A stretch of DNA of 64,000 nucleotides, from contig JAHFOV010000002.1 in NCBI GenBank assembly GCA_023261505.1, positions 14,136-78,135 of the forward strand, in the 5' to 3' direction. The stretch's first letter is position 1. Every line of letters begins with the position of its first letter. The notes under the pieces were generated by a model, which was not told the DNA's origin, ran no database searches, and worked only from the letters and a program-made list of their open reading frames with translations. This document shows positions 150 through 63,330 of this stretch, one piece after another. The stretch comes from Planctomycetota bacterium. Its GTDB lineage: Bacteria > Planctomycetota > Brocadiia > Brocadiales > Bathyanammoxibiaceae. The position numbers and the translations under genes were made by a program.

Positions 150-1286
150 ATGTCTCCCAAAATAAAAAATCTCCTCCCCCCAGGTAATTACTTCTTTGAA
201 GGCAATCAGGCCTGTGCTGAGGCGGCGCTTGCGGCCGGGTGCAGGTTCTTCGCAGGCTATCCTATCTCCCCGTCTAGTGAGATACTTGAGAGGCTCTCCT
301 GGCGGCTCCCAGAGGTGGGAGGGGTGTTCATCCAGATGGAGGATGAGATCGCCTCCATTGCGGCAGTAATCGGGGCGGTGTGGGCAGGGGCTAAGGCAAT
401 GACGGCCACTAGCGGGCCGGGCCTCAGCCTAATGCTAGAAAATATTGGCTACGCTATCATTACGGAGACTCCCTGCGTCGTAGTCGACGTCCAGAGGGCC
501 GGCCCTTCCACAGGACAGGCTACCAGACCCTACGATGGGGATATTATGCAGGTCAAGTGGGGTTCAAGTGGGGATTATCAGATTATTGCCCTCGCCCCCT
601 GGTCTGTTCAGGAGATGTACGACCTCACCATTCAGGCCTTCAACCTGGCAGAACTATATCGGGTGCCTGTCTTTGTTATGGGTGATGCGGCCTTGGCCCA
701 CCTGAGGGAGAGTTGCCGTATTCCCGAAGAGGTGGAGATAGTGGGGCGTAAAAAGGCAAGCGGCGTTGCTCATTTTGGGACCGATGAGCTTTCTGGTGTA
801 CCCCCAATGGCCAGCTTCGGAGAGGGGGAGGGGTTAATTATCACTGGTTCCACGCACGATGCCCTCGGCTACCGCAGAACCCAGGACTCCGATATACAAC
901 AAAAATTAGTGAACAGGCTTAACGAGAAGATTCTTTCTAACGTGGGCGAGATTATAGAAACAGAGGAATATTTCTTGGAAGGGGCCGATGTGGCGGTGGT
1001 CGCTTATGGGATAGTGGCCAGGGCAGCCCTGGCCGCAGTCAAGGAGGCCCGCCTGAGGGGGATAAAGATAGGATTGCTCAGGCTCAAGACCCTCTGGCCC
1101 TTCCCCGAGGAAAAAATAAGAGCCTTAGAAGCCAAAAAGATTGTAGTCCCCGAGCTTAACCGGGGTCAACTAGTGCGGGAGGTAGAGAGGGTGGCACAGG
1201 CAGAAGTAATATCTGTGAACAGGGTGGACGGAGAGATTATGAGGCCGGGGGAAATCGTGGAGGCGATAAAAGGGGTTAGGGACTAG
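150..1286 (+). CDS. 2-oxoacid:ferredoxin oxidoreductase, alpha subunit
   Basis: 378-aa ORF. 'GNQACAEAALAAGCRFFAGYPISPSSEI' and 'TATSGPGLSLMLE' are OFOR alpha signatures. Beta and gamma genes follow. Confidence 0.85.
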   Translation: MSPKIKNLLPPGNYFFEGNQACAEAALAAGCRFFAGYPISPSSEILERLSWRLPEVGGVFIQMEDEIASIAAVIGAVWAGAKAMTATSGPGLSLMLENIGYAIITETPCVVVDVQRAGPSTGQATRPYDGDIMQVKWGSSGDYQIIALAPWSVQEMYDLTIQAFNLAELYRVPVFVMGDAALAHLRESCRIPEEVEIVGRKKASGVAHFGTDELSGVPPMASFGEGEGLIITGSTHDALGYRRTQDSDIQQKLVNRLNEKILSNVGEIIETEEYFLEGADVAVVAYGIVARAALAAVKEARLRGIKIGLLRLKTLWPFPEEKIRALEAKKIVVPELNRGQLVREVERVAQAEVISVNRVDGEIMRPGEIVEAIKGVRD

Positions 1287-1322
1287 GGATTAGGGGTTAG
1301 TAGAAAAGATGAAGAGAGCGGA

Positions 1323-2120
1323 ATGAGTGAAAAGAAGGGAAAGGAAATGGAAGCCACCTGGAAAAAATACCTAAGAAAAGAGACCCTGCCCCTACCATTT
1401 TGCCCGGGCTGTGGGCATGGGATAGTGCTTTCTGCTATCCTTAGGGCCATTGAGGCTTCAGGGATAGATATAAAGGACATGCTCTTTGTCTCGGGGATAG
1501 GCTGTGCTGGCTGGATTCCAAGTCCACACATAAGGGCTGATACCATGCACGTTACCCATGGTCGCCCCATAGCCTTTGCCACAGGGGCCAAACTCTTTAA
1601 CCCCAGGCTTAAGGTCATGGTAGTGAGTGGTGACGGAGACCTGGCCTCCATCGGTGGAAATCACCTTATTCATGCGGCAAGGCGGGATATTGATATGGTG
1701 GTGGTGTGTGCCAACAATGAGATATACGGTATGACTGGCGGGCAGGTCTCCCCCACTACCGGACTAGGAGTCAAGACGACAACGACGTTAGCGGGGAATA
1801 TAGAGCCACCACTAGATTTATGTAAGCTGGTGGAGGCGGCCGGGGCAAGCTATGTGGCGAGGTCAACTGTCTTTCATCTGGAACACCTTATTAGTCTTCT
1901 TAAAAGGGCACTAAATCTTAAGGGCTTTTCATTTATAGACGCCTTATCGCCATGCCCTACACAGTATGGAAGGCGGAACCTCTACGCCTCAGCAGCGGAA
2001 CAGTTAAAAGACCTGGAGAAGAGGTGCATCTTGCTGCAAGAGGCCAGCGCTGCACCTCCGGAGACGCTGAAGGATAAGGTTATCATAGGAGAGTTTGTCC
2101 TTAGAGACAGTAAGCAGTAG
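1323..2120 (+). CDS. 2-oxoacid:ferredoxin oxidoreductase, beta (TPP-binding) subunit
   Basis: 'FCPGCGHG' cluster cysteines, 'SGIGC' and the 'VVSGDGDLASIGGNH' TPP motif. Confidence 0.85.
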   Translation: MSEKKGKEMEATWKKYLRKETLPLPFCPGCGHGIVLSAILRAIEASGIDIKDMLFVSGIGCAGWIPSPHIRADTMHVTHGRPIAFATGAKLFNPRLKVMVVSGDGDLASIGGNHLIHAARRDIDMVVVCANNEIYGMTGGQVSPTTGLGVKTTTTLAGNIEPPLDLCKLVEAAGASYVARSTVFHLEHLISLLKRALNLKGFSFIDALSPCPTQYGRRNLYASAAEQLKDLEKRCILLQEASAAPPETLKDKVIIGEFVLRDSKQ

Positions 2121-2200
2121 GTAGTACGCAGTAAGCAGAAAACCCTAGCTTTCCATTTTTACTCCATGGTGCCTAGCCGCTACTGCTTAGTGCTTACTGC
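2109..2200. repeat. family E heptamer-periodic inverted repeat (AGTAnGC)n ... (GCnTACT)n
   Basis: Left arm 'agtaagcagtaggtagtacgcagtaagcag' and right arm 'gctactgcttagtgcttactgc'. Spans the stop codon of the beta subunit. Confidence 0.75.
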
Positions 2201-4754: not shown

Positions 4755-4861
4755 GTCATTGCGAGAGACAAAGTCCCGAAGTCACGCCAAAGGCGGATTC
4801 GTCTTTGGCGAACAATCTCATTCTGTTTTGGGAGATTGCTTCGCTCCACGCGCAATGACAG
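4755..4861. repeat. family A palindromic repeat (GTCATTGCGAG...GAAGCAATC / GATTGCTTCG...CGCAATGAC arms)
   Basis: Left arm at 4755-4783, right arm at 4831-4861 and an inner hairpin 'cgccaaaggcggattcgtctttggcg'. Confidence 0.8.
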
Positions 4862-9687: not shown

Positions 9688-9877
9688 AGTTTTATTTAAA
9701 ATGTGTTTTTGAAATGCAGCGTGCGACCTTGTGTCGCACGAATGTGCTGTAGATACGTGCCAGGCAAGCCATGCCTGAGGCAGATCCGCCAAAGGCGTTA
9801 CTGGCACGCTACAATTCCCCTGAACCAGGGGACTAGGAAAGAATTCAGGTAAAACCTTTGGAGGAAAAGGTGGGGGG

Positions 9878-9944
9878 AGTAAGCAGTAAGGAGTAAGCAG
9901 TATGCAGCAAACAGCCTGCTGTACAGTGCCTACTGCTTATTGCT
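9878..9944. repeat. family E heptamer-periodic inverted repeat
   Basis: 'agtaagcagtaaggagtaagcagtatgcagcaaacag ... gcctactgcttattgct'. Confidence 0.75.
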
Positions 9945-10394: not shown

Positions 10395-10457
10395 AATTGA
10401 AATTACAAATTGCAAATTCCAGATTATAGATTTAAATTTAATTTGTAATTTGAAATT
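10395..10457. repeat. family C A+T-rich palindrome (AATTACAAATTGCAAATT-type)
   Basis: 'aattgaaattacaaattgcaaattcc...aatttaatttgtaatttgaaatt'. Confidence 0.75.
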
Positions 10458-10580: not shown

Positions 10581-10666
10581 CATTGCAAAAGGAGGAGATT
10601 GCTTTCGCCACAATAAGGGCCTCGCAATGACTGGAAGTGTCGTTGCGAACGGAGCGAACCAATCTC
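10581..10666. repeat. family A palindromic repeat, degenerate double copy
   Basis: 'cattgcaaaaggaggagattgctttcgcc...cctcgcaatgac' plus 'gtcgttgcgaacggagcgaaccaatctc'. Confidence 0.7.
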
Positions 10667-10692
10667 TTATTGTATTTTAAGGAGAAAAAGAC

Positions 10693-24410: not shown

Positions 24411-24472
24411 AATCACAAATTTCAAATTGCAAATTGAGAGATCTGAAATTTGGAATTTGCGATTTGTAATTA
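24411..24472. repeat. family C A+T-rich palindrome
   Basis: 'aatcacaaatttcaaattgcaaattgagagatctgaaatttggaatttgcgatttgtaatt'. Confidence 0.75.
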
Positions 24473-24485
24473 GATTTAAAGGACC

Positions 24486-26435
24486 ATGGAACTAGAGGAA
24501 AGACTGGAACACCTGCCCACAGGGCCAGGCGTCTATCTTATGAAGGACGCAAAGAGCAAGGTCATTTATGTGGGCAAGGCAAAAAATCTTAAAAATCGGG
24601 CCAAGAGTTACTTCCAGAAGGGGGGCGACGGGAGGTTACTTGTTCAACATCTCCTCAAAAGAGTTGCCGACGTGGATGTAGTTCTCACCGATACGGAAAA
24701 AGAGGCCCTTATCCTTGAAAATAATCTGATAAAACAGTTCAAGCCTCGCTACAATACCATCTTCAGGGACGACAAGACCTATGTAAGTATAAAAATTGAC
24801 CTATCCAAACCTTTTCCCCATCCTCAAATAGTCAGGGAGGTGAAGAAGGACGGGGCCCTATATTTTGGTCCTTACAGCTCCAGCCGGGCCGTAAGGGAAA
24901 CTCTGAGGTTCCTTTACGAGCTTTATCCCATAAGAAAGTGTTCAGAAAGGACATATACAGGAAGAAAGAGGCCGTGCCTGTATTATCAGATGGGTAAATG
25001 CCCTGGACCTTGTGTGGGGCTGGCCGATGATAAGGCCTATAGGGAGATTATTGAGGAGGTTATACTCTTCTTGAAAGGTAAAAGGGAGGAGCTGATAGAG
25101 GCCCTTAGAGAAAAGATGCTAAAGGAGGCCGAGGCAGAAAACTTTGAGAAGGCGGCAGAAATACGGGACCGCATCCAGGCCATCCAACAGACCGTAGAGA
25201 GACAGAAGATACGTTCACCTAGTTTTATAGACCGAGATGTCTTTGGGTATTACCGAGAAGGCAAAGAGATGTCCGTTCAGGCCATGTTTATACGCAACGG
25301 GAACCTGGAAGACATAGCCTCTTACTTTCTCCCCGTACACTACAATAACCCTGAAGAAGTCTTTTCTGCCTTCCTTGTTCAGTTCTACAGTCACAACCGC
25401 TTCATCCCCAGGGAGATACTGATACCCATGGAGGTAGAAGATGCTCCTCTGCTAGAGGAGATATTGACGGAACGAAAGGGGCAGAAGGTTTCCGTGATAT
25501 TCCCCCAAAAGGGTGAGAAAACAAGACTGGTAGAGCTAGCAATGAGGAATGCTGAAAATGCATTCAGGGCGAGACACAGCACACCTCAGCGTCACAAAAT
25601 GATTCTTGAAGGACTTAAAGAGGCCCTCGGTCTAAAAAATTTCCCTCAGAGGATAGAGTGTTTCGACATATCCAATATTGGTGGCAGGCAGGCTGTGGGT
25701 TCTATGGTAACCTTTGAAGGGGGATTGCCTAATAAAAATAGGTACCGCAGATACAAAGTAGAGACGGTTCCCCAGGCAGACGACTTTGCCATGATGGAGG
25801 AAGTCCTAACACGCCGCTACAAGAAGGCCCTTGAAGAAAATTATCTCCCTCAACTGACTATAGTTGATGGGGGCAAGGGGCAGCTTGGGGTGGCCCTAAA
25901 GGTTATGGAAAAGTTAGGGATAAAGGATGTAGACGTCATCGCCCTGGCTAAGGCCAGGAAGGCGATATCTGACTTAGGCGGACGGGGCGTCATTGCTAGC
26001 GAAGCGAAGCAATCTCAAAGATTGTTCGCCAAGGCGAATCTGCCTAAGGCACTACTTCGGGGCTTCGCCTCTCGCAACGACCGGCCATCCGAGCTCCAGG
26101 ATAGGGTGTTCATCCCGTGGAAATCAGAACCAATCCTCCTTCCTACCGATTCGCCAGAACTTCTCCTGCTGGGGAGGATTAGGGACGAGGCTCACCGCTT
26201 TGCCATCACCTACCACAAGAAGCTCCGCCAGAGGCAATTCTATCGTTCACCGCTGGATGAAATCCCAGGTATAGGTCCAGCCAGGAAGGCAAAGCTAATG
26301 AAGTGCTTTGGCAGTATAGAGAACATCCGACAGGCAGGGCTTAAGGATTTAAAAGAGGTTGCTGGATTGCCTGCCAAACAGGCTGAGCTTATATATAACT
26401 ACTTCCATCCTCCAGTTACAGCCTCTAAAACCTGA
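24486..26435 (+). CDS. uvrC: excinuclease ABC subunit C
   Basis: GIY-YIG 'GVYLMKDAKSKVIYVGKAKNLKNR', UVR domain, 'DISNIGG', 'VDGGKGQL', 'IRDEAHRFAI' and a C-terminal HhH. Carries a repeat-derived in-frame insert at about 25989-26082. Confidence 0.9.
   Translation: MELEERLEHLPTGPGVYLMKDAKSKVIYVGKAKNLKNRAKSYFQKGGDGRLLVQHLLKRVADVDVVLTDTEKEALILENNLIKQFKPRYNTIFRDDKTYVSIKIDLSKPFPHPQIVREVKKDGALYFGPYSSSRAVRETLRFLYELYPIRKCSERTYTGRKRPCLYYQMGKCPGPCVGLADDKAYREIIEEVILFLKGKREELIEALREKMLKEAEAENFEKAAEIRDRIQAIQQTVERQKIRSPSFIDRDVFGYYREGKEMSVQAMFIRNGNLEDIASYFLPVHYNNPEEVFSAFLVQFYSHNRFIPREILIPMEVEDAPLLEEILTERKGQKVSVIFPQKGEKTRLVELAMRNAENAFRARHSTPQRHKMILEGLKEALGLKNFPQRIECFDISNIGGRQAVGSMVTFEGGLPNKNRYRRYKVETVPQADDFAMMEEVLTRRYKKALEENYLPQLTIVDGGKGQLGVALKVMEKLGIKDVDVIALAKARKAISDLGGRGVIASEAKQSQRLFAKANLPKALLRGFASRNDRPSELQDRVFIPWKSEPILLPTDSPELLLLGRIRDEAHRFAITYHKKLRQRQFYRSPLDEIPGIGPARKAKLMKCFGSIENIRQAGLKDLKEVAGLPAKQAELIYNYFHPPVTASKT
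25989..26082. repeat. family A palindromic repeat inside the uvrC coding sequence
   Basis: 'gtcattgctagcgaagcgaagcaatctc...cttcggggcttcgcctctcgcaacgac', with the same inner 'ttcgccaaggcgaatc' module as the copy at 4783-4818. Confidence 0.8.
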
Positions 26436-27562: not shown

Positions 27563-27623
27563 AGTAGGGAGTAGGCAGTAGACAGTAGGTAGTTTTTACT
27601 TCCTTACTGCTTACTTCCTACTG
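27563..27623. repeat. family E heptamer-periodic inverted repeat between ccsA and resB
   Basis: 'agtagggagtaggcagtagacagtaggtag ttttt acttccttactgcttacttcctactg'. Confidence 0.75.
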
Positions 27624-35318: not shown

Positions 35319-36374
35319 GTGAAGCATGAATATGACGTCGTGGTGGTAGGGGCAGGACCCTCCGGGGCTGCTACTGCAAAAGGGCTTAGCCGGAATGGTT
35401 TGAAGGTACTAATAGTAGAGAGAAAGAAGCTCCCCAGGTACAAGATATGCTCCGGGCTAATTAACGAGAAGTCCCAGAAGCTCACCCAGAAACATTTCGG
35501 ACAAATTCCCGATGAATGTTACTGCAGGCCAAAGATAATAAAAGGGGTTCGCCTCTGGGAAAATACTGAAAAACATACCAACTGGCCTTTTGGGGGAAAG
35601 GATGGGGCGCCTAATGTTTGGAGGGCACAGTACGATAAATGGCTGGTGGACCATTCAGGGGCAGAGGTAAGGGATGGGTGCCTGCTTAAGGATTTCAAGG
35701 TTAATAGTAAAGCTATAACCCTTTATTGCCAGGACGAGAGCGAAGGAAGTATTGAAATAAGTTGCAAATATCTCGTGGGAGCAGAAGGATGCCTCTCATC
35801 AATAAGGGCCAAACTGAATCCCAAACTTGAGAGCGAATGCCTCTGGTTCCTTGCCTACCAGAACTATTATGAGGGAGAATGCAGCCTCGACCCCGAATGG
35901 TATCATGGGTTTCTGGACGCAAGTCTCGGAGAGATATACGCCTGGTTCAATGTAAAGGACGATTTCATTATCTTCGGCACCTCCATTAAGCGGGGAGAGA
36001 AGTTTGAACCTTACCTCAAGACTTACACTGAGTTCCTTCAGAAAAACTTTGGATTAAAGCTGGGGAGGCTTGTAAGGAAATCCAGTTGCCTGGGCACAAA
36101 CCTTTGTGCAACTGGGAATTTCTATCTGGGAAGTGGGAACATACTCCTTGTGGGAGAGGCCGCAGGGTTTCTAAACATGTTCGGAGAAGGCATATCCTCT
36201 GCCCTAGCCACCGGACTATTGGCCGCCCAGGCCGTCAACGAAGCTGAATCAGAAAACCCAAACAGACCCGTGCTTGAGATTTACACAGAGCTTACCAGAC
36301 AAGAGCGCCGAGAAACCCTTGCCTCGTGGAAGCTGGCCAACAGGATAGCAGGGAGAAGGCTGTTGCTAGAGTGA
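35319..36374 (+). CDS. FAD-dependent oxidoreductase (geranylgeranyl reductase family-like)
   Basis: 'YDVVVVGAGPSGAATA' dinucleotide fold and 'LLVGEAAGF'. GTG start. Confidence 0.7.
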   Translation: MKHEYDVVVVGAGPSGAATAKGLSRNGLKVLIVERKKLPRYKICSGLINEKSQKLTQKHFGQIPDECYCRPKIIKGVRLWENTEKHTNWPFGGKDGAPNVWRAQYDKWLVDHSGAEVRDGCLLKDFKVNSKAITLYCQDESEGSIEISCKYLVGAEGCLSSIRAKLNPKLESECLWFLAYQNYYEGECSLDPEWYHGFLDASLGEIYAWFNVKDDFIIFGTSIKRGEKFEPYLKTYTEFLQKNFGLKLGRLVRKSSCLGTNLCATGNFYLGSGNILLVGEAAGFLNMFGEGISSALATGLLAAQAVNEAESENPNRPVLEIYTELTRQERRETLASWKLANRIAGRRLLLE

Positions 36375-36527
36375 ACTAGGTAGTAGGCAGTAGGCAGACC
36401 CAGGTCATTGCGAGCGAAGCGAAGCAATCCCATAGGAATGAGATTGCTTCGTCGCTTCGCTCCTCGCAATGACAGAGAGTGGAAGGCCGTCAACAGGATA
36501 GCAGGTAGAAAGCTATTACTAGAATAA
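36326..36527 (+). repeat. 49-bp direct duplication of a gene 3' end flanking inserted repeats
   Basis: 36326-36374 and 36479-36527 are identical at 39 of 49 positions by hand alignment. Both encode W-K-x-x-N-R-I-A-G-R-(R/K)-L-L-L-E-stop. Confidence 0.8.
36404..36473. repeat. family A palindromic repeat, archetypal copy
   Basis: 'gtcattgcgagcgaagcgaagcaatc-ccataggaatgag-attgcttcgtcgcttcgctcctcgcaatgac'. Confidence 0.85.
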
Positions 36528-36529
36528 AG

Positions 36530-36592
36530 CAGGAAGTAGCCGCTTGCTGCTTACTCCCTCCTGTTTACTGTCTACTCGCTACTATCTCCTAT
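36530..36592. repeat. family E right-arm tract; partner left arm at 36378-36397
   Basis: 'ggaagtagccgcttgctgcttactccctcctgtttactgtctactcgctactatc'. Lies between convergent genes. Confidence 0.65.
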
Positions 36593-39249: not shown

Positions 39250-39333
39250 GATTGGAAATTTCAAATTCTAAATTCCCAATATTAAATCCCCCTATATCCC
39301 CCTTTAGCAAAGGGGGACTGAGGGGGATTTTCC
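39250..39333. repeat. composite family C plus family D (CCCCCTTT..AAAGGGGG) repeats
   Basis: 'ggaaatttcaaattctaaattccc' followed by 'tccccctttagcaaagggggactgagggggatttt'. Confidence 0.7.
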
Positions 39334-45734: not shown

Positions 45735-46749
45735 TCAGGCCATAGTGATAGCGGCAGAGAGGGCCGGCTTAGGCTTCTTTGCTGGCTATCCCATCACCCC
45801 TGCCTCTGAGATACTTCATGAACTGGTGGGTAGAAAGTACATAAAGGTCATGCAGATGGAGGACGAGATAGCCTCCATAAATGCCTGTATAGGGGCCTCC
45901 CTTGCTGGGCTTAAGGTCATGACGGCTACCAGTGGGCCCGGTTTCTCCCTCATGCAGGAGAGCATAGGGCTAGCCCACATGATGGAAGTCCCTATGGTAA
46001 TAGTAAATGTACAAAGGGTAGGACCCAGCACAGGGATGCCGACCTTCCCCGCCCAAGGTGATATTATTCAGGCAAGGCACGGCAGCCATGGAGACTACTT
46101 CCCTATAATCTTTTATCCCAACTCTGTTGAAGAGATCTACCGACATACATTCAGTGCCTTTAACGCCGCCGAAGAGTCCCTTAGTCCTGTTCTACTCCTC
46201 AGCGATGGCTACATTAGCCACCTGTACGAAACCGTGGAGCTTACGAACTATCCAGTTGTACAGAGGGGCAGACCACCTCTAGGCGCAGGTAACCGTCACT
46301 TTACTGGTCTTACCCATAAGGACTCGTGCCCCGTAACCTCAAGCCCTGAGGTGCACAGAACCCTTCTAGCCCACTTCCAAAAGAAGTGTATGCAGACCTG
46401 CGCAAACTACAACTTTTATGAATATATTGAAAACGACACGGCAGATACCCTTTTGATAGCCTTCGGTGCCCTATCAAGGGCCATTTACAATTTTAAGGAT
46501 AAATATGGCGTTTTCAGGCCCATCAGGCTTTTCCCCATGATAGAAGAATTAAAGGACTTCGCTTCCCGATACGAATACATTGTAGTCCTGGAAATGAACA
46601 CTGGCCAATATTGTTATGAGGTAGAAAGCCTTCTGCACAGAGAGGTGGAGCTACTGGCCCTGCCTGGAGGCAAAATAGACATTAAGGAAATAAGCGACAA
46701 ACTTCAGGAATTAAGACAGGCATCATCTAAACAGGTAACGATAAACTAA
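45709..46749 (+). CDS. 2-oxoacid (probably 2-oxoglutarate):ferredoxin oxidoreductase alpha subunit
   Basis: 'GNQAIVIAAERAGLGFFAGYPITPASEI' and 'TATSGPGFSLMQE'. The 2-oxoglutarate assignment rests only on sucCD/fumarase context. Confidence 0.8.
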   Translation: MSKQLLQGNQAIVIAAERAGLGFFAGYPITPASEILHELVGRKYIKVMQMEDEIASINACIGASLAGLKVMTATSGPGFSLMQESIGLAHMMEVPMVIVNVQRVGPSTGMPTFPAQGDIIQARHGSHGDYFPIIFYPNSVEEIYRHTFSAFNAAEESLSPVLLLSDGYISHLYETVELTNYPVVQRGRPPLGAGNRHFTGLTHKDSCPVTSSPEVHRTLLAHFQKKCMQTCANYNFYEYIENDTADTLLIAFGALSRAIYNFKDKYGVFRPIRLFPMIEELKDFASRYEYIVVLEMNTGQYCYEVESLLHREVELLALPGGKIDIKEISDKLQELRQASSKQVTIN

Positions 46750-46762
46750 GCAGGCGATAAAC

Positions 46763-47512
46763 ATGGAAGACACTATGCGTTTCAAGCGCTTCCTGAAGGA
46801 AGAGAACCTGCCCACCCCATGGTGTCCGGGCTGTGGTAACGGCCAGATTCTTAAGTCAGCATGCCAGGCCTTTGAAGAACTCAATTTTGATAAGCGACAG
46901 GTAGTCATCGTCTCTGGCATAGGATGCGCGGGCAGGAGCGCTGGTTTCTTTGACATGGACTCAGTCCATACTGCCCACGGTAGGGCTATCCCTGTTGCTG
47001 AGGGTATAAAAACCGCCAATGAGAACCTGAAAGTTGTTGTACTGAGCGGAGACGGAGATCTACTGGGCATAGGTGGCAACCATCTCCTTCATGCCACAAG
47101 GCGAAATACCCCCATCTCTATTATCTGCTACTCCAACGAGATATACGGTATGACCGGTGGCCAGGTCTCTCCCACTACCAGACTAAATACCAAGACCGTC
47201 ACCACGCCCGAAGGCAACAAAGACTGCCCTGTCAACGTTCAAGCTATTATCAAGGCCCACAACTGCTTCTATGCAAGAAGTACTACCTTTCATCTAGCAC
47301 ACCTTAAAAAAAGCATTATTGAGGCACTGAGACACCCCGGTCTTTCCTTTGTAGATGTTATATGCCAGTGCATCGTCAATAACGGTCGCCGCGTAGGGTT
47401 CAAAGACGCTTTTGAGATGCTTATGTACTATAAGAACAATTATAAAATTAACGACAATACCGAACTTCTAAAAGAGAACGAGATAGGAATAACCCGATGG
47501 ACTTCAGCGTAG
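46763..47512 (+). CDS. 2-oxoacid:ferredoxin oxidoreductase beta (TPP) subunit
   Basis: 'WCPGCGNG', 'SGIGC' and 'VLSGDGDLLGIGGNH'. Confidence 0.85.
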   Translation: MEDTMRFKRFLKEENLPTPWCPGCGNGQILKSACQAFEELNFDKRQVVIVSGIGCAGRSAGFFDMDSVHTAHGRAIPVAEGIKTANENLKVVVLSGDGDLLGIGGNHLLHATRRNTPISIICYSNEIYGMTGGQVSPTTRLNTKTVTTPEGNKDCPVNVQAIIKAHNCFYARSTTFHLAHLKKSIIEALRHPGLSFVDVICQCIVNNGRRVGFKDAFEMLMYYKNNYKINDNTELLKENEIGITRWTSA

Positions 47513-52179: not shown

Positions 52180-52335
52180 TTATGAGACCTCTCCAAAACG
52201 TAAAATGTCATTGCGATGGGCGTGAGCCCCGAAGCAATCTCTTAACGTTCTTTAAAAGGGATTGCTTCGTCCGCCTAAAGCGTCCTCGCAATGACATATA
52301 CCCTTGGAGCGTTGTGGAGTCTCATTGTAATTATA
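52179..52335. repeat. family A palindromic repeat with extended outer inverted arms
   Basis: Core at 52207-52295. Outer arms 'taattatgagacctctccaaaacg' and 'cgttgtggagtctcattgtaatta' are also inverted. Confidence 0.75.
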
Positions 52336-52883: not shown

Positions 52884-53035
52884 AACGAATTACAAATTAA
52901 GTTGCTACTCACAAATGATTTAAAGACCTTTTATAATTCCCTTAGTTTCCTTTACGAAAGGGGGATTTGCACCTTTAATCCCCCTTTTCTAAAGAGGGAT
53001 ATAGGGGGACTATTTGTAATTTATGATTTGTTTTG
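52884..53035. repeat. composite family C arms enclosing family D hairpins
   Basis: 'aaaacgaattacaaatt...' and '...ctatttgtaatttatgatttgtttt' flank 'cctttacgaaagggggatttgcacctttaatccccttttctaaagaggg'. Confidence 0.65.
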
Positions 53036-63273: not shown

Positions 63274-63330
63274 GCAATTACAAATTACAGATTTCAAATT
63301 ATAAAGATTAAAATGCAATCTGCAATTTGT
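63274..63330. repeat. family C A+T-rich palindrome
   Basis: 'gcaattacaaattacagatttcaaatt...gcaatctgcaatttgt', between larC and rnfE. Confidence 0.7.

What the first reader, a model, noticed from the sequence alone, without database searches (positions are those of the whole stretch)
25989..26082. Intergenic-type palindromic repeat inserted in frame inside uvrC
A family A element sits within the uvrC reading frame. The other four copies (4755, 10581, 36404 and 52207) are all intergenic. This copy is translated as '...GVIASEAKQSQRLFAKANLPKALLRGFASRNDR...'. It lies between the conserved 'VDGGKGQL...ALAKA' and 'RVFIPWKSEPILL...IRDEAHRFAI' blocks of the C-terminal endonuclease domain, where UvrC proteins I remember have only a short linker. 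The ORF remains open at 649 aa. A hairpin repeat has therefore become a roughly 40-residue protein insertion, apparently without killing the gene. This is a concrete case of repeat exaptation or tolerated insertion in an essential-pathway gene.
Basis: partly seen in the sequence, partly recalled or inferred. Interest (0 to 1): 0.65.

Follow-up and report, generated by a model that had tools for sequence, protein, structure and literature searches.

The report
Hairpin repeat translated inside uvrC
A 93-base palindromic repeat normally found between genes has landed in frame in a variable surface loop of the DNA-repair gene uvrC of an anammox-related bacterium, adding 31 amino acids without breaking the gene; similar cases, including in uvrC, have been described in other bacteria.

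Summary
Window 25989-26081 (93 nt, 31 codons, starting on a codon boundary) is a copy of a dispersed palindromic repeat. It lies inside an intact 649-aa uvrC (24486-26435). It is 82% identical to the intergenic copy at 4755-4859.

An independent assembly (99.70% identical over 7.7 kb, 23 SNPs) carries the identical insert. All 119 other Brocadiales-like UvrC proteins examined lack it.

The insert follows the beta-strand VIALAK of the RNase H-like endonuclease domain, between catalytic D461 and H570. This linker varies in length across bacteria. AlphaFold models the insert with pLDDT below 50 and the flanking core at about 90.

The repeat is not specific to this genome. Its arms (C/T-GTCATTGC...CGAAGCAATC) occur in many bacterial phyla and in viral contigs. 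They fit most marks of the CGTC-tagged REP superfamily (Di Nocera et al. 2013), which includes Rickettsia RPE-4/-6. That paper already lists in-frame copies in uvrA, uvrB and uvrC.

I found the same family in frame in a UvrA and a GuaA. I also found a different palindrome in frame in the same UvrC loop of a sister lineage.

Verdict: a genuine, tolerated insertion and a new member of a known kind. Exaptation is not shown.

The parts
24486..26435 (+). uvrC, 649 aa, intact ORF that hosts the insertion
   Evidence: ORF list. Pfam GIY-YIG, UVR, UvrC_RNaseH, UvrC_RNaseH_dom, HHH_5 and HHH_2. It keeps every column that is invariant in 121 homologues, including D394, D461 and H570.
25989..26081 (+). 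In-frame palindromic repeat: a dimer of two CGTC-type arms with a central module. 93 nt, 31 codons, UvrC residues 502-532.
   Evidence: Sequence. Family matches. 82% identity to the copy at 4755-4859. Absent from 119 of 121 homologues. DNA fold -20.1 kcal/mol, z = -3.7.
25989..26016 (+). Left arm GTCATTGCTAGCGAAGCGAAGCAATCTC, preceded by C, giving a CGTC tag
   Evidence: One mismatch to the 26-nt consensus arm. That mismatch, GCG>GCT, is synonymous (Ala), as read directly from the sequence.
26017..26054 (+). Central module AAAGATTGTTCGCCAAGGCGAATCTGCCTAAGGCACTA, shared with the 4755 copy
   Evidence: Alignment to the reverse complement of 4755-4859.
26055..26081 (+). Right arm CTTCGGGGCTTCGCCTCTCGCAACGAC
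   Evidence: The terminus matches CTCGCAATGAC with one mismatch. That mismatch, AAT>AAC, is synonymous (Asn).
25983..25988 (+). Left junction CGG GGC. CGG is repeated at 26082-26084, so the true boundaries are uncertain by 3-6 nt and the inserted DNA could be 93-99 nt.
   Evidence: Orthologues read S-G-R-P (P0005, P0004). The window reads G-G-R-G-[insert]-R-P.
26082..26084 (+). Right junction CGG, a possible 3-bp direct repeat of 25983-25985
   Evidence: Sequence. Other copies show no consistent target duplication.
25866..25868 (+). Codon of D461 (VDGGKGQL), an invariant catalytic-site Asp upstream of the insert
   Evidence: Invariant column. Its catalytic role comes from the T. maritima UvrC literature (my own knowledge).
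26193..26195 (+). Codon of H570 (RDEAHRF), an invariant catalytic-site His downstream of the insert
   Evidence: Invariant column.
4755..4859 (-). Intergenic copy of the same subfamily, 105 nt. It is the closest relative of the uvrC copy, in reverse orientation.
10581..10670 (+). Two half-copies (single arms) with their tagged heads adjacent; intergenic
36404..36473 (+). Intergenic 70-nt copy; near-perfect hairpin, -28.2 kcal/mol, z = -8.8
52207..52295 (+). Intergenic 89-nt copy; hairpin, -26.8 kcal/mol, z = -8.0

Best explanation
A non-autonomous palindromic repeat inserted into uvrC in a recent ancestor of this strain. The repeat is a dimer of two inverted CGTC/TGTC-tagged arms, related to the CGTC-tagged REP superfamily that includes Rickettsia RPE-4/-6.

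The gene survived for three reasons.
1. The inserted DNA is a multiple of three.
2. It entered in a phase in which both arms are stop-free (GTC ATT GC... gives VIA...; ...AAT GAC gives ...ND).
3. It landed in the loop after strand beta-5 (VIALAK) of the RNase H-like 3'-incision domain. This linker varies in length across UvrC proteins.

The 31 extra residues are translated as a looped-out, probably flexible or weakly helical excursion. The catalytic core is left intact.

What is shown: the insertion, its family, its absence from orthologues, its presence in two assemblies, preservation of frame and of invariant residues, and the variability of the loop.

What is inferred: that the protein is made and still works, that the insert is neutral or nearly so, and how the element moved. 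No transposase is known for this class.
For: Identity and frame.

Absence from orthologues.
- 119 of 121 relatives lack the insert.
- The ALAK..DRVFxP linker is 59 aa here. The mode is 23, and the next longest is 48.
- Empty-site DNA was read in L002, L125 and L126.

Independent assembly: L003 is 99.70% identical over 7,755 nt, with 23 SNPs and none in the insert.

Core fold kept.
- All invariant columns are retained.
- In the AF2 model, flanking strands 483-488 and 540-542 lie in blocks of pLDDT about 90. Residues 492-535 are below 50.
- The model's endonuclease domain matches 2NRR with TM 0.91.
- The T. maritima structure has only KKEET at this spot.

Permissive loop.
- The DGG..RDExH length is 54-129 in 132 diverse UvrC proteins.
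- A different nested palindrome is in frame in the same loop in P0018 and P0020.
- A 17-nt terminus of the same family lies in the same linker of P0003.

The family tolerates translation. Full dimers are in frame, in the same phase, in a UvrA (L111, 87 nt) and a GuaA (L087, 78 nt).

Published precedent (PMC3733652).
- In-frame CGTC and GTAG REPs are reported in excinuclease genes.
- Examples include R. conorii RC0864 UvrC and X. autotrophicus Xaut_2344 UvrC.
- The MITE review PMC10969869 covers RPEs.
Against: - There is no expression, proteomic or UV-survival data, so function of the decorated UvrC is assumed.
- Between the two strains uvrC shows 4 nonsynonymous to 1 synonymous codon changes. 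Neighbouring genes show 2 to 14 (Fisher p = 0.011). This could mean relaxed constraint on uvrC.
- The AF2 insert is low-confidence because only two near-identical sequences carry it, so 'surface loop' rests on flanking topology and homology, not on a confident model.
- No empty allele of the same species was found. The JGI scan found neither allele. Recent mobility is therefore not demonstrated.
- No consistent target-site duplication or mobilising enzyme was identified.
Confidence: 0.85

Rival explanations
1. The insertion has damaged UvrC and the gene is decaying or functionally altered: an early pseudogene or a mutator-type allele. Its open frame reflects only that the insertion is recent.
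For: - uvrC shows 4 nonsynonymous to 1 synonymous codon differences between the two strains, against 2 to 14 in flanking genes (Fisher p = 0.011).
- Three of the four lie in the C-terminal HhH region. One is L619R in L003, at a mostly hydrophobic column.
- The insert sits between catalytic residues D461 and H570, inside the catalytic domain.
- Di Nocera et al. speculate that REP insertions in UvrABCD genes may create mutators.
Against: - The ORF is intact in both strains.
- Every column invariant in 121 homologues is kept.
- Both terminal mismatches of the insert relative to the family consensus are synonymous.
- The loop tolerates long natural insertions in many lineages.
- The substitution counts are tiny: 5 changed codons.
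Confidence: 0.12
2. Exaptation: the 31 residues have acquired a role in UvrC, for example a helical hairpin that contacts DNA or UvrB, and are kept by selection.
For: - AF2 draws two short helices, 504-515 and 522-530, in the insert.
- Both terminal changes relative to the consensus are synonymous.
- There are no SNPs in the insert between the two strains.
- The DNA hairpin is weakened relative to intergenic copies (-20.1 against -27 to -28 kcal/mol), as expected if selection no longer acts on the hairpin.
- Repeat insertions recur in this loop.
Against: - The helices have pLDDT below 50.
- Only two strains at 99.7% identity carry the insert, so zero SNPs in 93 nt is expected by chance (23 SNPs in 7,755 nt predicts 0.28).
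- Relatives at 83% aa identity do without it.
- Inserts in this loop in other lineages are unrelated in sequence.
Confidence: 0.06
3. Assembly artefact: a repeat copy was wrongly joined into uvrC by the assembler.
For: Dispersed repeats are a classic cause of chimeric joins. The window comes from an unknown, probably metagenomic, assembly.
Against: - A separate ENA MEGAHIT contig (L003) from a distinguishable strain has the identical insert at the identical position. It has 23 SNPs, 0 indels, and collinear flanks on both sides.
- A chimeric join would not restore the uvrC frame and sequence on the far side after exactly 31 codons.
Confidence: 0.02

Closest known systems
CGTC-tagged REP superfamily (Di Nocera, De Gregorio & Rocco 2013, BMC Genomics 14:522, PMC3733652). 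It includes Rickettsia RPE-4/RPE-6 and Neisseria dRS3.
   Same: - Terminal C/T-GTC tag on each arm: 33 of 35 and 34 of 35 ends.
- The first stem bases are A-T and T-A.
- A CCA(G) tail in copies from other phyla.
- Organised mostly as inverted dimers with tags outward, encoding 20-30 aa when intragenic.
- The paper found no dedicated transposase for this class.
- In-frame copies occur in excinuclease genes, including uvrC of R. conorii and X. autotrophicus.
   Different: - Arm architecture differs. Here a 5-bp ATTGC/GCAAT stem encloses a 12-25-nt variable inner segment, often the GCGAAGC mini-hairpin. The defining form is an 8-9-bp stem with a 4-5-nt loop.
- Tails in this window are CTC or CCC.
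- The paper reports CGTC repeats in 5 phyla, not Planctomycetes. This variant is in many more.
- I could not see the paper's Figure 2 to check whether 'Bradyrhizobium CGTC-1 with loops of different length' is this same element.
Rickettsia palindromic elements (RPE-1 etc.; Ogata et al. 2000 Science 290:347, as summarised in PMC10969869)
   Same: Palindromic repeats of about 100-150 bp inserted in frame into unrelated housekeeping genes. They are translated as extra peptide segments judged compatible with the protein fold.
   Different: RPE-1 is genus-restricted and occurs in dozens of genes per genome. Here one of about six copies in 64 kb is intragenic, the host is a free-living anammox-related planctomycete, and the repeat sequence is shared across phyla.
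[quoted passage not shown]
   Same: Short, non-coding, with terminal inverted repeats, multicopy and mostly intergenic, occasionally forming in-frame fusions.
   Different: No consistent target-site duplication and no parent IS with matching ends were seen.
GTAG REPs/REPINs mobilised by RAYT transposases
   Same: Short palindromes, inverted dimers, downstream-of-gene location and occasional intragenic copies (uvrA of O. terrae in PMC3733652).
   Different: The ends here are CGTC/TGTC, not GTAG, and no RAYT association is known for CGTC repeats.

Membership tests
CGTC-tagged REP superfamily (PMC3733652) | One end of each unit carries the tetranucleotide CGTC (variants TGTC, CCTC) | tested here: met
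   In 35 full elements (31 from other phyla, 4 from the window) the base 5' of GTCATTGC is C or T in 33. The base 3' of GCAATGAC is G or A in 34. The uvrC copy has CGTC on the left and GGTC on the right.
CGTC-tagged REP superfamily (PMC3733652) | Stem of 8-9 bp with a loop of 4-5 nt | tested here: not met
   Each arm has a 5-bp ATTGC/GCAAT stem around a 12-25-nt variable inner segment. The paper allows 'loops of different length' only for a few families.
CGTC-tagged REP superfamily (PMC3733652) | Complementary A-T residues in the first and second stem positions | tested here: met
   The arms read (C)GTC-ATTGC...GCAAT in all copies.
CGTC-tagged REP superfamily (PMC3733652) | Short unpaired 3-nt tail, mostly CCA | tested here: inconclusive
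   Most copies from other phyla read GCAAT-CCAG. Window copies read GCAAT-CTC or -CCC.
CGTC-tagged REP superfamily (PMC3733652) | Units mostly paired in inverted orientation (dimers); intragenic dimers encode 20-30 aa | tested here: met
   31 full dimers of 73-117 nt in 120 loci. The uvrC copy encodes 31 aa, the UvrA copy 29 aa and the GuaA copy 26 aa.
CGTC-tagged REP superfamily (PMC3733652) | No associated transposase gene | not tested
   I did not screen genes next to copies for transposases.
MITE | Terminal inverted repeats | tested here: met
   GTCATTGCGAG...CTCGCAATGAC termini.
MITE | Target-site duplication of fixed length | tested here: inconclusive
   Flanks of 4 window copies and 31 others show no consistent duplication. 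CGG flanks the uvrC insert, but this is not seen elsewhere.
MITE | A parent insertion sequence with matching ends | not tested
   No search for a parent IS was made.
GTAG REP / REPIN-RAYT | GTAG tetranucleotide at one end; flanking RAYT gene | tested here: not met
   The ends are C/T-GTC, not GTAG. RAYT was not searched for.
Rfam RNA families | Match at gathering score to any curated RNA family | tested here: not met
   No hits in the window or in three loci rich in copies. In E-value mode only generic hairpin (miRNA precursor) matches appeared, far below threshold.
UvrC (host gene) | GIY-YIG, UVR, RNase H-like endonuclease and (HhH)2 domains with catalytic residues | tested here: met
   Pfam. 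Invariant D394, D461 and H570 are retained. Structure matches to 2NRT, 2NRR, 3C65 and 1YD6.

The most novel reading that the evidence does not exclude
The repeated appearance of palindromic repeats inside nucleotide-excision-repair genes may not be passive tolerance.

The cases are:
- this uvrC;
- a different palindrome in the same UvrC loop of a sister lineage;
- the same family in a gammaproteobacterial UvrA;
- the published UvrA, UvrB and UvrC cases.

Two causal readings remain open. Hairpin-forming repeats may be preferentially captured or retained in NER genes, for example because altered NER activity (a mild mutator or altered hairpin processing) favours the repeat's own spread. Or the UvrC beta-5 loop may be a selected landing pad where repeat-encoded helical hairpins tune incision.

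In addition, this particular CGTC-ATTGC element, with constant ends conserved across many phyla and in viral contigs, may be an undescribed pan-bacterial mobile element dependent on a conserved host or phage factor.
Probability: 0.1. Interest if true: 0.7.

Novelty: new member of a known kind. Interest (0 to 1): 0.35.

Why it matters
This is a clean case of how selfish hairpin repeats add peptide segments to housekeeping proteins. The empty sites in orthologues and a second strain were both recovered.

It extends the CGTC-type repeat class to anammox-related Planctomycetota. The same repeat variant is spread across many bacterial phyla and viral contigs.

It adds three data points to an unexplained published pattern of palindromic repeats inside UvrA, UvrB and UvrC:
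- this uvrC;
- a second palindrome family in the same UvrC loop;
- the same family in a UvrA.

For annotation, translated repeats of the type VIASEAKQS...RND inside real proteins should be recognised as repeat-derived. They are not lineage-specific domains.

Tried and rejected
1. Rfam at gathering threshold on the window and on three copy-rich loci, and in E-value mode on one copy, gave no family.
2. Literature search by sequence strings gave only unrelated primer hits or nothing. The relevant paper came from a keyword search.
3. I tried to fetch X. autotrophicus UvrC (Xaut_2344) by its published repeat peptide, to see whether its insertion is in the same loop. The first query was too short. 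The padded query found no candidates.
4. I scanned JGI metagenome contigs for an empty allele and then for the filled allele of this uvrC site. Both gave 0 hits, so the species is not in that collection and nothing can be said about polymorphism.
5. I looked for a target-site duplication across copies. None was consistent.
6. Intein, intron or programmed-excision readings were rejected. The segment is a 31-aa copy of a dispersed DNA repeat with no such motifs.
7. 'The repeat derives from uvrC' was rejected. The family is pan-bacterial and the orthologues lack the segment.
8. Among long open frames spanning copies in high-GC loci, several looked like artefacts of long chance open frames or of upstream, not intragenic, elements (L006, L025, L048, L109, L021, L040). 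These were judged by reading the translations, not by Pfam, and were not counted. Only L111, L087 and L071 were run through Pfam. L111 and L087 were accepted, and L071 as a probable single arm.
Full report
**What is there.** The ORF at 24486-26435 (+) encodes a 649-aa protein with the full UvrC architecture. Pfam finds GIY-YIG (15-90), UVR (201-235), UvrC_RNaseH (249-362), UvrC_RNaseH_dom (378-574, E = 2.7e-54) and HhH (590-643). Inside it, nt 25989-26081 read GTCATTGCTAGCGAAGCGAAGCAATCTC / AAAGATTGTTCGCCAAGGCGAATCTGCCTAAGGCACTA / CTTCGGGGCTTCGCCTCTCGCAACGAC. This is 93 nt, or 31 codons. It starts on a codon boundary, since 25989 minus 24486 is 1503. It translates as VIASEAKQSQRLFAKANLPKALLRGFASRND, which is UvrC residues 502-532.

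**It is a copy of a dispersed repeat.**
- The consensus arm GTCATTGCGAGCGAAGCGAAGCAATC matches three places in the window at 3 or fewer mismatches, against none in 100 shuffles.
- The 11-nt terminus CTCGCAATGAC matches nine places, against 0.45 expected.
- Complete copies lie at 4755-4859 (105 nt), 36404-36473 (70 nt) and 52207-52295 (89 nt). Two single arms lie at 10581-10631 and 10639-10670.
- None of these overlaps an ORF of 90 aa or more.
- The uvrC copy aligns end to end with the reverse complement of the 4755 copy at 82% identity (76 of 93 aligned positions, one 11-nt and one 1-nt gap). The two share an internal module.
- The intergenic copies fold into strong hairpins: -26.8 to -28.2 kcal/mol, z from -5.7 to -8.8.
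- The uvrC copy is weaker at -20.1 kcal/mol, z = -3.7, because each terminus carries one mismatch.
- Both of those mismatches are synonymous in the uvrC frame: GCG>GCT (Ala) and AAT>AAC (Asn).

**It is an insertion and not an artefact.**
- A search of 5.8 billion proteins places the gene among Brocadiales-like Planctomycetota.
- In an alignment of 121 homologues, only the window and P0001 (99% identical) have the segment.
- The stretch from ALAK to DRVFxP is 59 residues here. The mode is 23, the closest relatives (83-78% identity) have 23-29, and the next longest is 48.
- I read the empty sites at DNA level in L002, L125 and L126.
- P0001 is encoded on an ENA MEGAHIT contig (L003). That contig is collinear with the window over 7,755 nt at 99.70% identity, with 23 SNPs and no indels. 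It carries the identical 93 nt at the identical place.
- Two distinguishable strains in two assemblies therefore agree, which disposes of a chimeric join.
- Comparison with orthologues that read S-G-R-P suggests the ancestral sequence was GGA CGG CCA. The insert would then be flanked by a CGG direct repeat (25983-25985 and 26082-26084), leaving 3-6 nt of boundary ambiguity. No consistent target duplication is seen at other copies.

**Where it sits in the protein.**
- The insert follows strand 483-488 (VIALAK) and precedes strand 540-542 (RVF) of the RNase H-like 3'-incision domain. It lies between the invariant D461 (VDGGKGQ) and H570 (RDEAHRF).
- All columns that are invariant in the 121 sequences are kept.
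- The AlphaFold model has a mean pLDDT of 75.8. The 10-residue blocks on either side of the insert are at about 90. Residues 492-535 are below 50, with two tentative helices at 504-515 and 522-530.
- The model's endonuclease domain superposes on T. maritima 2NRR with a target-normalised TM-score of 0.91, and on 3C65 with 0.86.
- HMMER splits the alignment to 2NRT exactly at the insert. T. maritima has only LAK-KEET-VVF there.
- This linker is not generally short. In 132 diverse UvrC representatives the DGG..RDExH segment ranges from 54 to 129 residues, with a mode of 58. The window's 105 is among the five longest.
- It is therefore a naturally permissive loop.

**The same loop has been hit more than once.**
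- In P0018 and P0020 (about 61% identical to this UvrC; their sisters P0016, P0017 and P0021 lack it) the linker contains, in frame, AATCCCCCC..CCCCCCCTTTATTAAAGGGGGG..GGGGGGATT, translated IPPSPPLLKGGKGGI.
- This is a nested palindrome of a different family. That family also occurs intergenically in this window at 39285-39332 and 52972-53009.
- In P0003 a 17-nt terminus of the present family (GTCATTGCGAGCGAAGC) lies at another position of the same linker, together with other extra DNA.
- Even the 'empty' linkers of the closest relatives are 9-bp hairpins (GGACAGGGC-TGAA-GCCCTGTCC). L126 has a compensatory pair change (GGACAGGTC-TTTA-GACCTGTCC).

**What the repeat is.**
- The hits come from Alpha-, Gamma- and Deltaproteobacteria, Chloroflexota, Bacteroidota, Cyanobacteria, Patescibacteria, Omnitrophota, Zixibacteria, Planctomycetota, Firmicutes and others. 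Cultured strains with complete genomes are included, such as Bradyrhizobium ganzhouense and Sporomusa malonica.
- Thirty-one complete dimers of 73-117 nt share near-invariant ends and a variable centre.
- No Rfam family matches, and no paper in the searchable library contains the sequence.
- The base before GTCATTGC is C or T in 33 of 35 copies. The base after GCAATGAC is G or A in 34 of 35. Each arm therefore carries a CGTC or TGTC tag.
- Together with the A-T/T-A start of the stem, the CCA(G) tail and the inverted-dimer organisation, this matches the CGTC-tagged REP superfamily of Di Nocera, De Gregorio and Rocco (PMC3733652). That superfamily includes Rickettsia RPE-4/-6 and Neisseria dRS3, and no transposase is known for it.
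- One defining feature is not met. Here a 5-bp stem encloses a 12-25-nt variable inner segment, often GCGAAGC, instead of an 8-9-bp stem with a 4-5-nt loop.
- I therefore call it a variant related to that superfamily rather than a member of one of its four families.

**In-frame insertion is a known habit of this class.**
- The same paper lists intragenic REPs, notes that many lie in replication and repair genes, and names excinuclease ABC proteins.
- Its supplement lists R. conorii RC0864 (UvrC, CGTC-1 single, aa 438-446) and X. autotrophicus Xaut_2344 (UvrC, CGTC-3 dimer, aa 550-585 of 779).
- The MITE review PMC10969869 summarises the Rickettsia RPE precedent.
- I screened the 136 elements in the 120 genome loci for copies inside long open frames.
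- One full dimer (87 nt, VIASKAKQSHSTGSANNGIATSPLAPRND) lies in frame in a UvrA of a gammaproteobacterial MAG (L111).
- Another (78 nt, VIARPRSGAAISKNSEIASEGAPRND) lies inside the glutamine-amidotransferase domain of a GuaA (L087).
- Pfam domains run across both insertions.
- A probable single arm lies in a PD-(D/E)XK nuclease (L071).
- All of these use the same phase as uvrC.
- By direct reading of the consensus arms, an element whose length is a multiple of three has stop-free arms in two of the three phases. Thirteen of the 35 elements have such a length, about the one in three expected by chance. Frame-preserving insertion is therefore not a rare accident.

**Caveat on function.** Between the window and L003, uvrC has four nonsynonymous and one synonymous codon change. 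The two neighbouring genes that differ have two and fourteen (Fisher p = 0.011). The numbers are small. They leave room for relaxed constraint on uvrC after the insertion, in line with the mutator speculation of Di Nocera et al.. Nothing here tests expression or activity.

**Verdict.** The reading 'tolerated in-frame insertion of a hairpin repeat' is well supported. 'Exaptation' is not. The kind of event is already known, including in uvrC, so this is a new member of a known kind. The modest added value lies in three things: the host phylum, the recurrent use of one UvrC loop by two repeat families, and the pan-bacterial reach of this repeat variant.

Noticed in passing
window 39285-39332 and 52972-53009; L124 and L129 uvrC linkers: A second palindromic repeat family (AATCCCCC..CCCCCTTT..AAAGGGGG..GGGGGATT, a nested double hairpin) is intergenic in this window. 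It is in frame as IPPSPPLLKGGKGGI in the same UvrC loop of P0018 and P0020.
   Followed up: partly
L002, L125, L126 uvrC linker DNA (orthologues of window about 25950-26110): The 'empty' linker of the closest orthologues is itself a perfect 9-bp hairpin, GGACAGGGC-TGAA-GCCCTGTCC. L126 has a compensatory change (GGACAGGTC..GACCTGTCC). This suggests an older small palindrome insertion or a conserved mRNA/DNA hairpin.
   Followed up: no
window 24486-26435 compared with L003: uvrC has 4 nonsynonymous to 1 synonymous codon differences between two 99.7%-identical strains. Neighbouring genes have 2 to 14 (Fisher p = 0.011). Three of the changes lie in the C-terminal HhH region.
   Followed up: partly
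Genome-contig loci L004-L123; viral-contig loci from L130 up: The arm pattern C/T-GTCATTGC-N8-25-CGAAGCAATC occurs across many bacterial phyla and in at least 120 IMG/VR viral contigs. One 13-kb viral locus has up to 6 copies (L144). Neither Rfam nor the searchable literature holds the sequence.
   Followed up: partly
L111:1761-4490 (-) and L087:4073-5743 (+): Full dimers of the same repeat family are in frame inside a UvrA (87 nt) and inside the GATase domain of a GMP synthase (78 nt) in gammaproteobacterial MAGs. Both use the same reading phase as the uvrC copy.
   Followed up: yes
window 2109-2143, 9864-9926, 27563-27597, 36368-36402, 36539-36591: Intergenic arrays with 7-nt periodicity (AGTAAGC/AGTAGGC...) occur in both orientations, some directly flanking the REP copy at 36404 (D1, I5, I13, I15).
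   Followed up: no
window 10401-10428, 24411-24438, 39257-39284, 63276-63303: An AT-rich repeat with CAAATT periodicity (AATTACAAATTGCAAATT...). One copy lies about 50 nt upstream of the uvrC start codon. It may be a promoter-region or regulatory motif (D3).
   Followed up: no
window 328-1804 and 45848-47223: Several direct repeats (D2, D10, D12) at a constant spacing of about 45.4 kb, 73-90% identical, indicate a pair of paralogous genes.
   Followed up: no
P0015, P0099, P0117, P0007, P0133 (UvrC homologues): Other lineage-specific insertions occur elsewhere in UvrC. P0015 has a K/E/D-rich 24-aa insert before the VDGG strand. Scalindua-type sequences have inserts after the GIY-YIG domain. P0133 has a '..QCIASLQKG..' insert before the LAK strand.
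   Followed up: no
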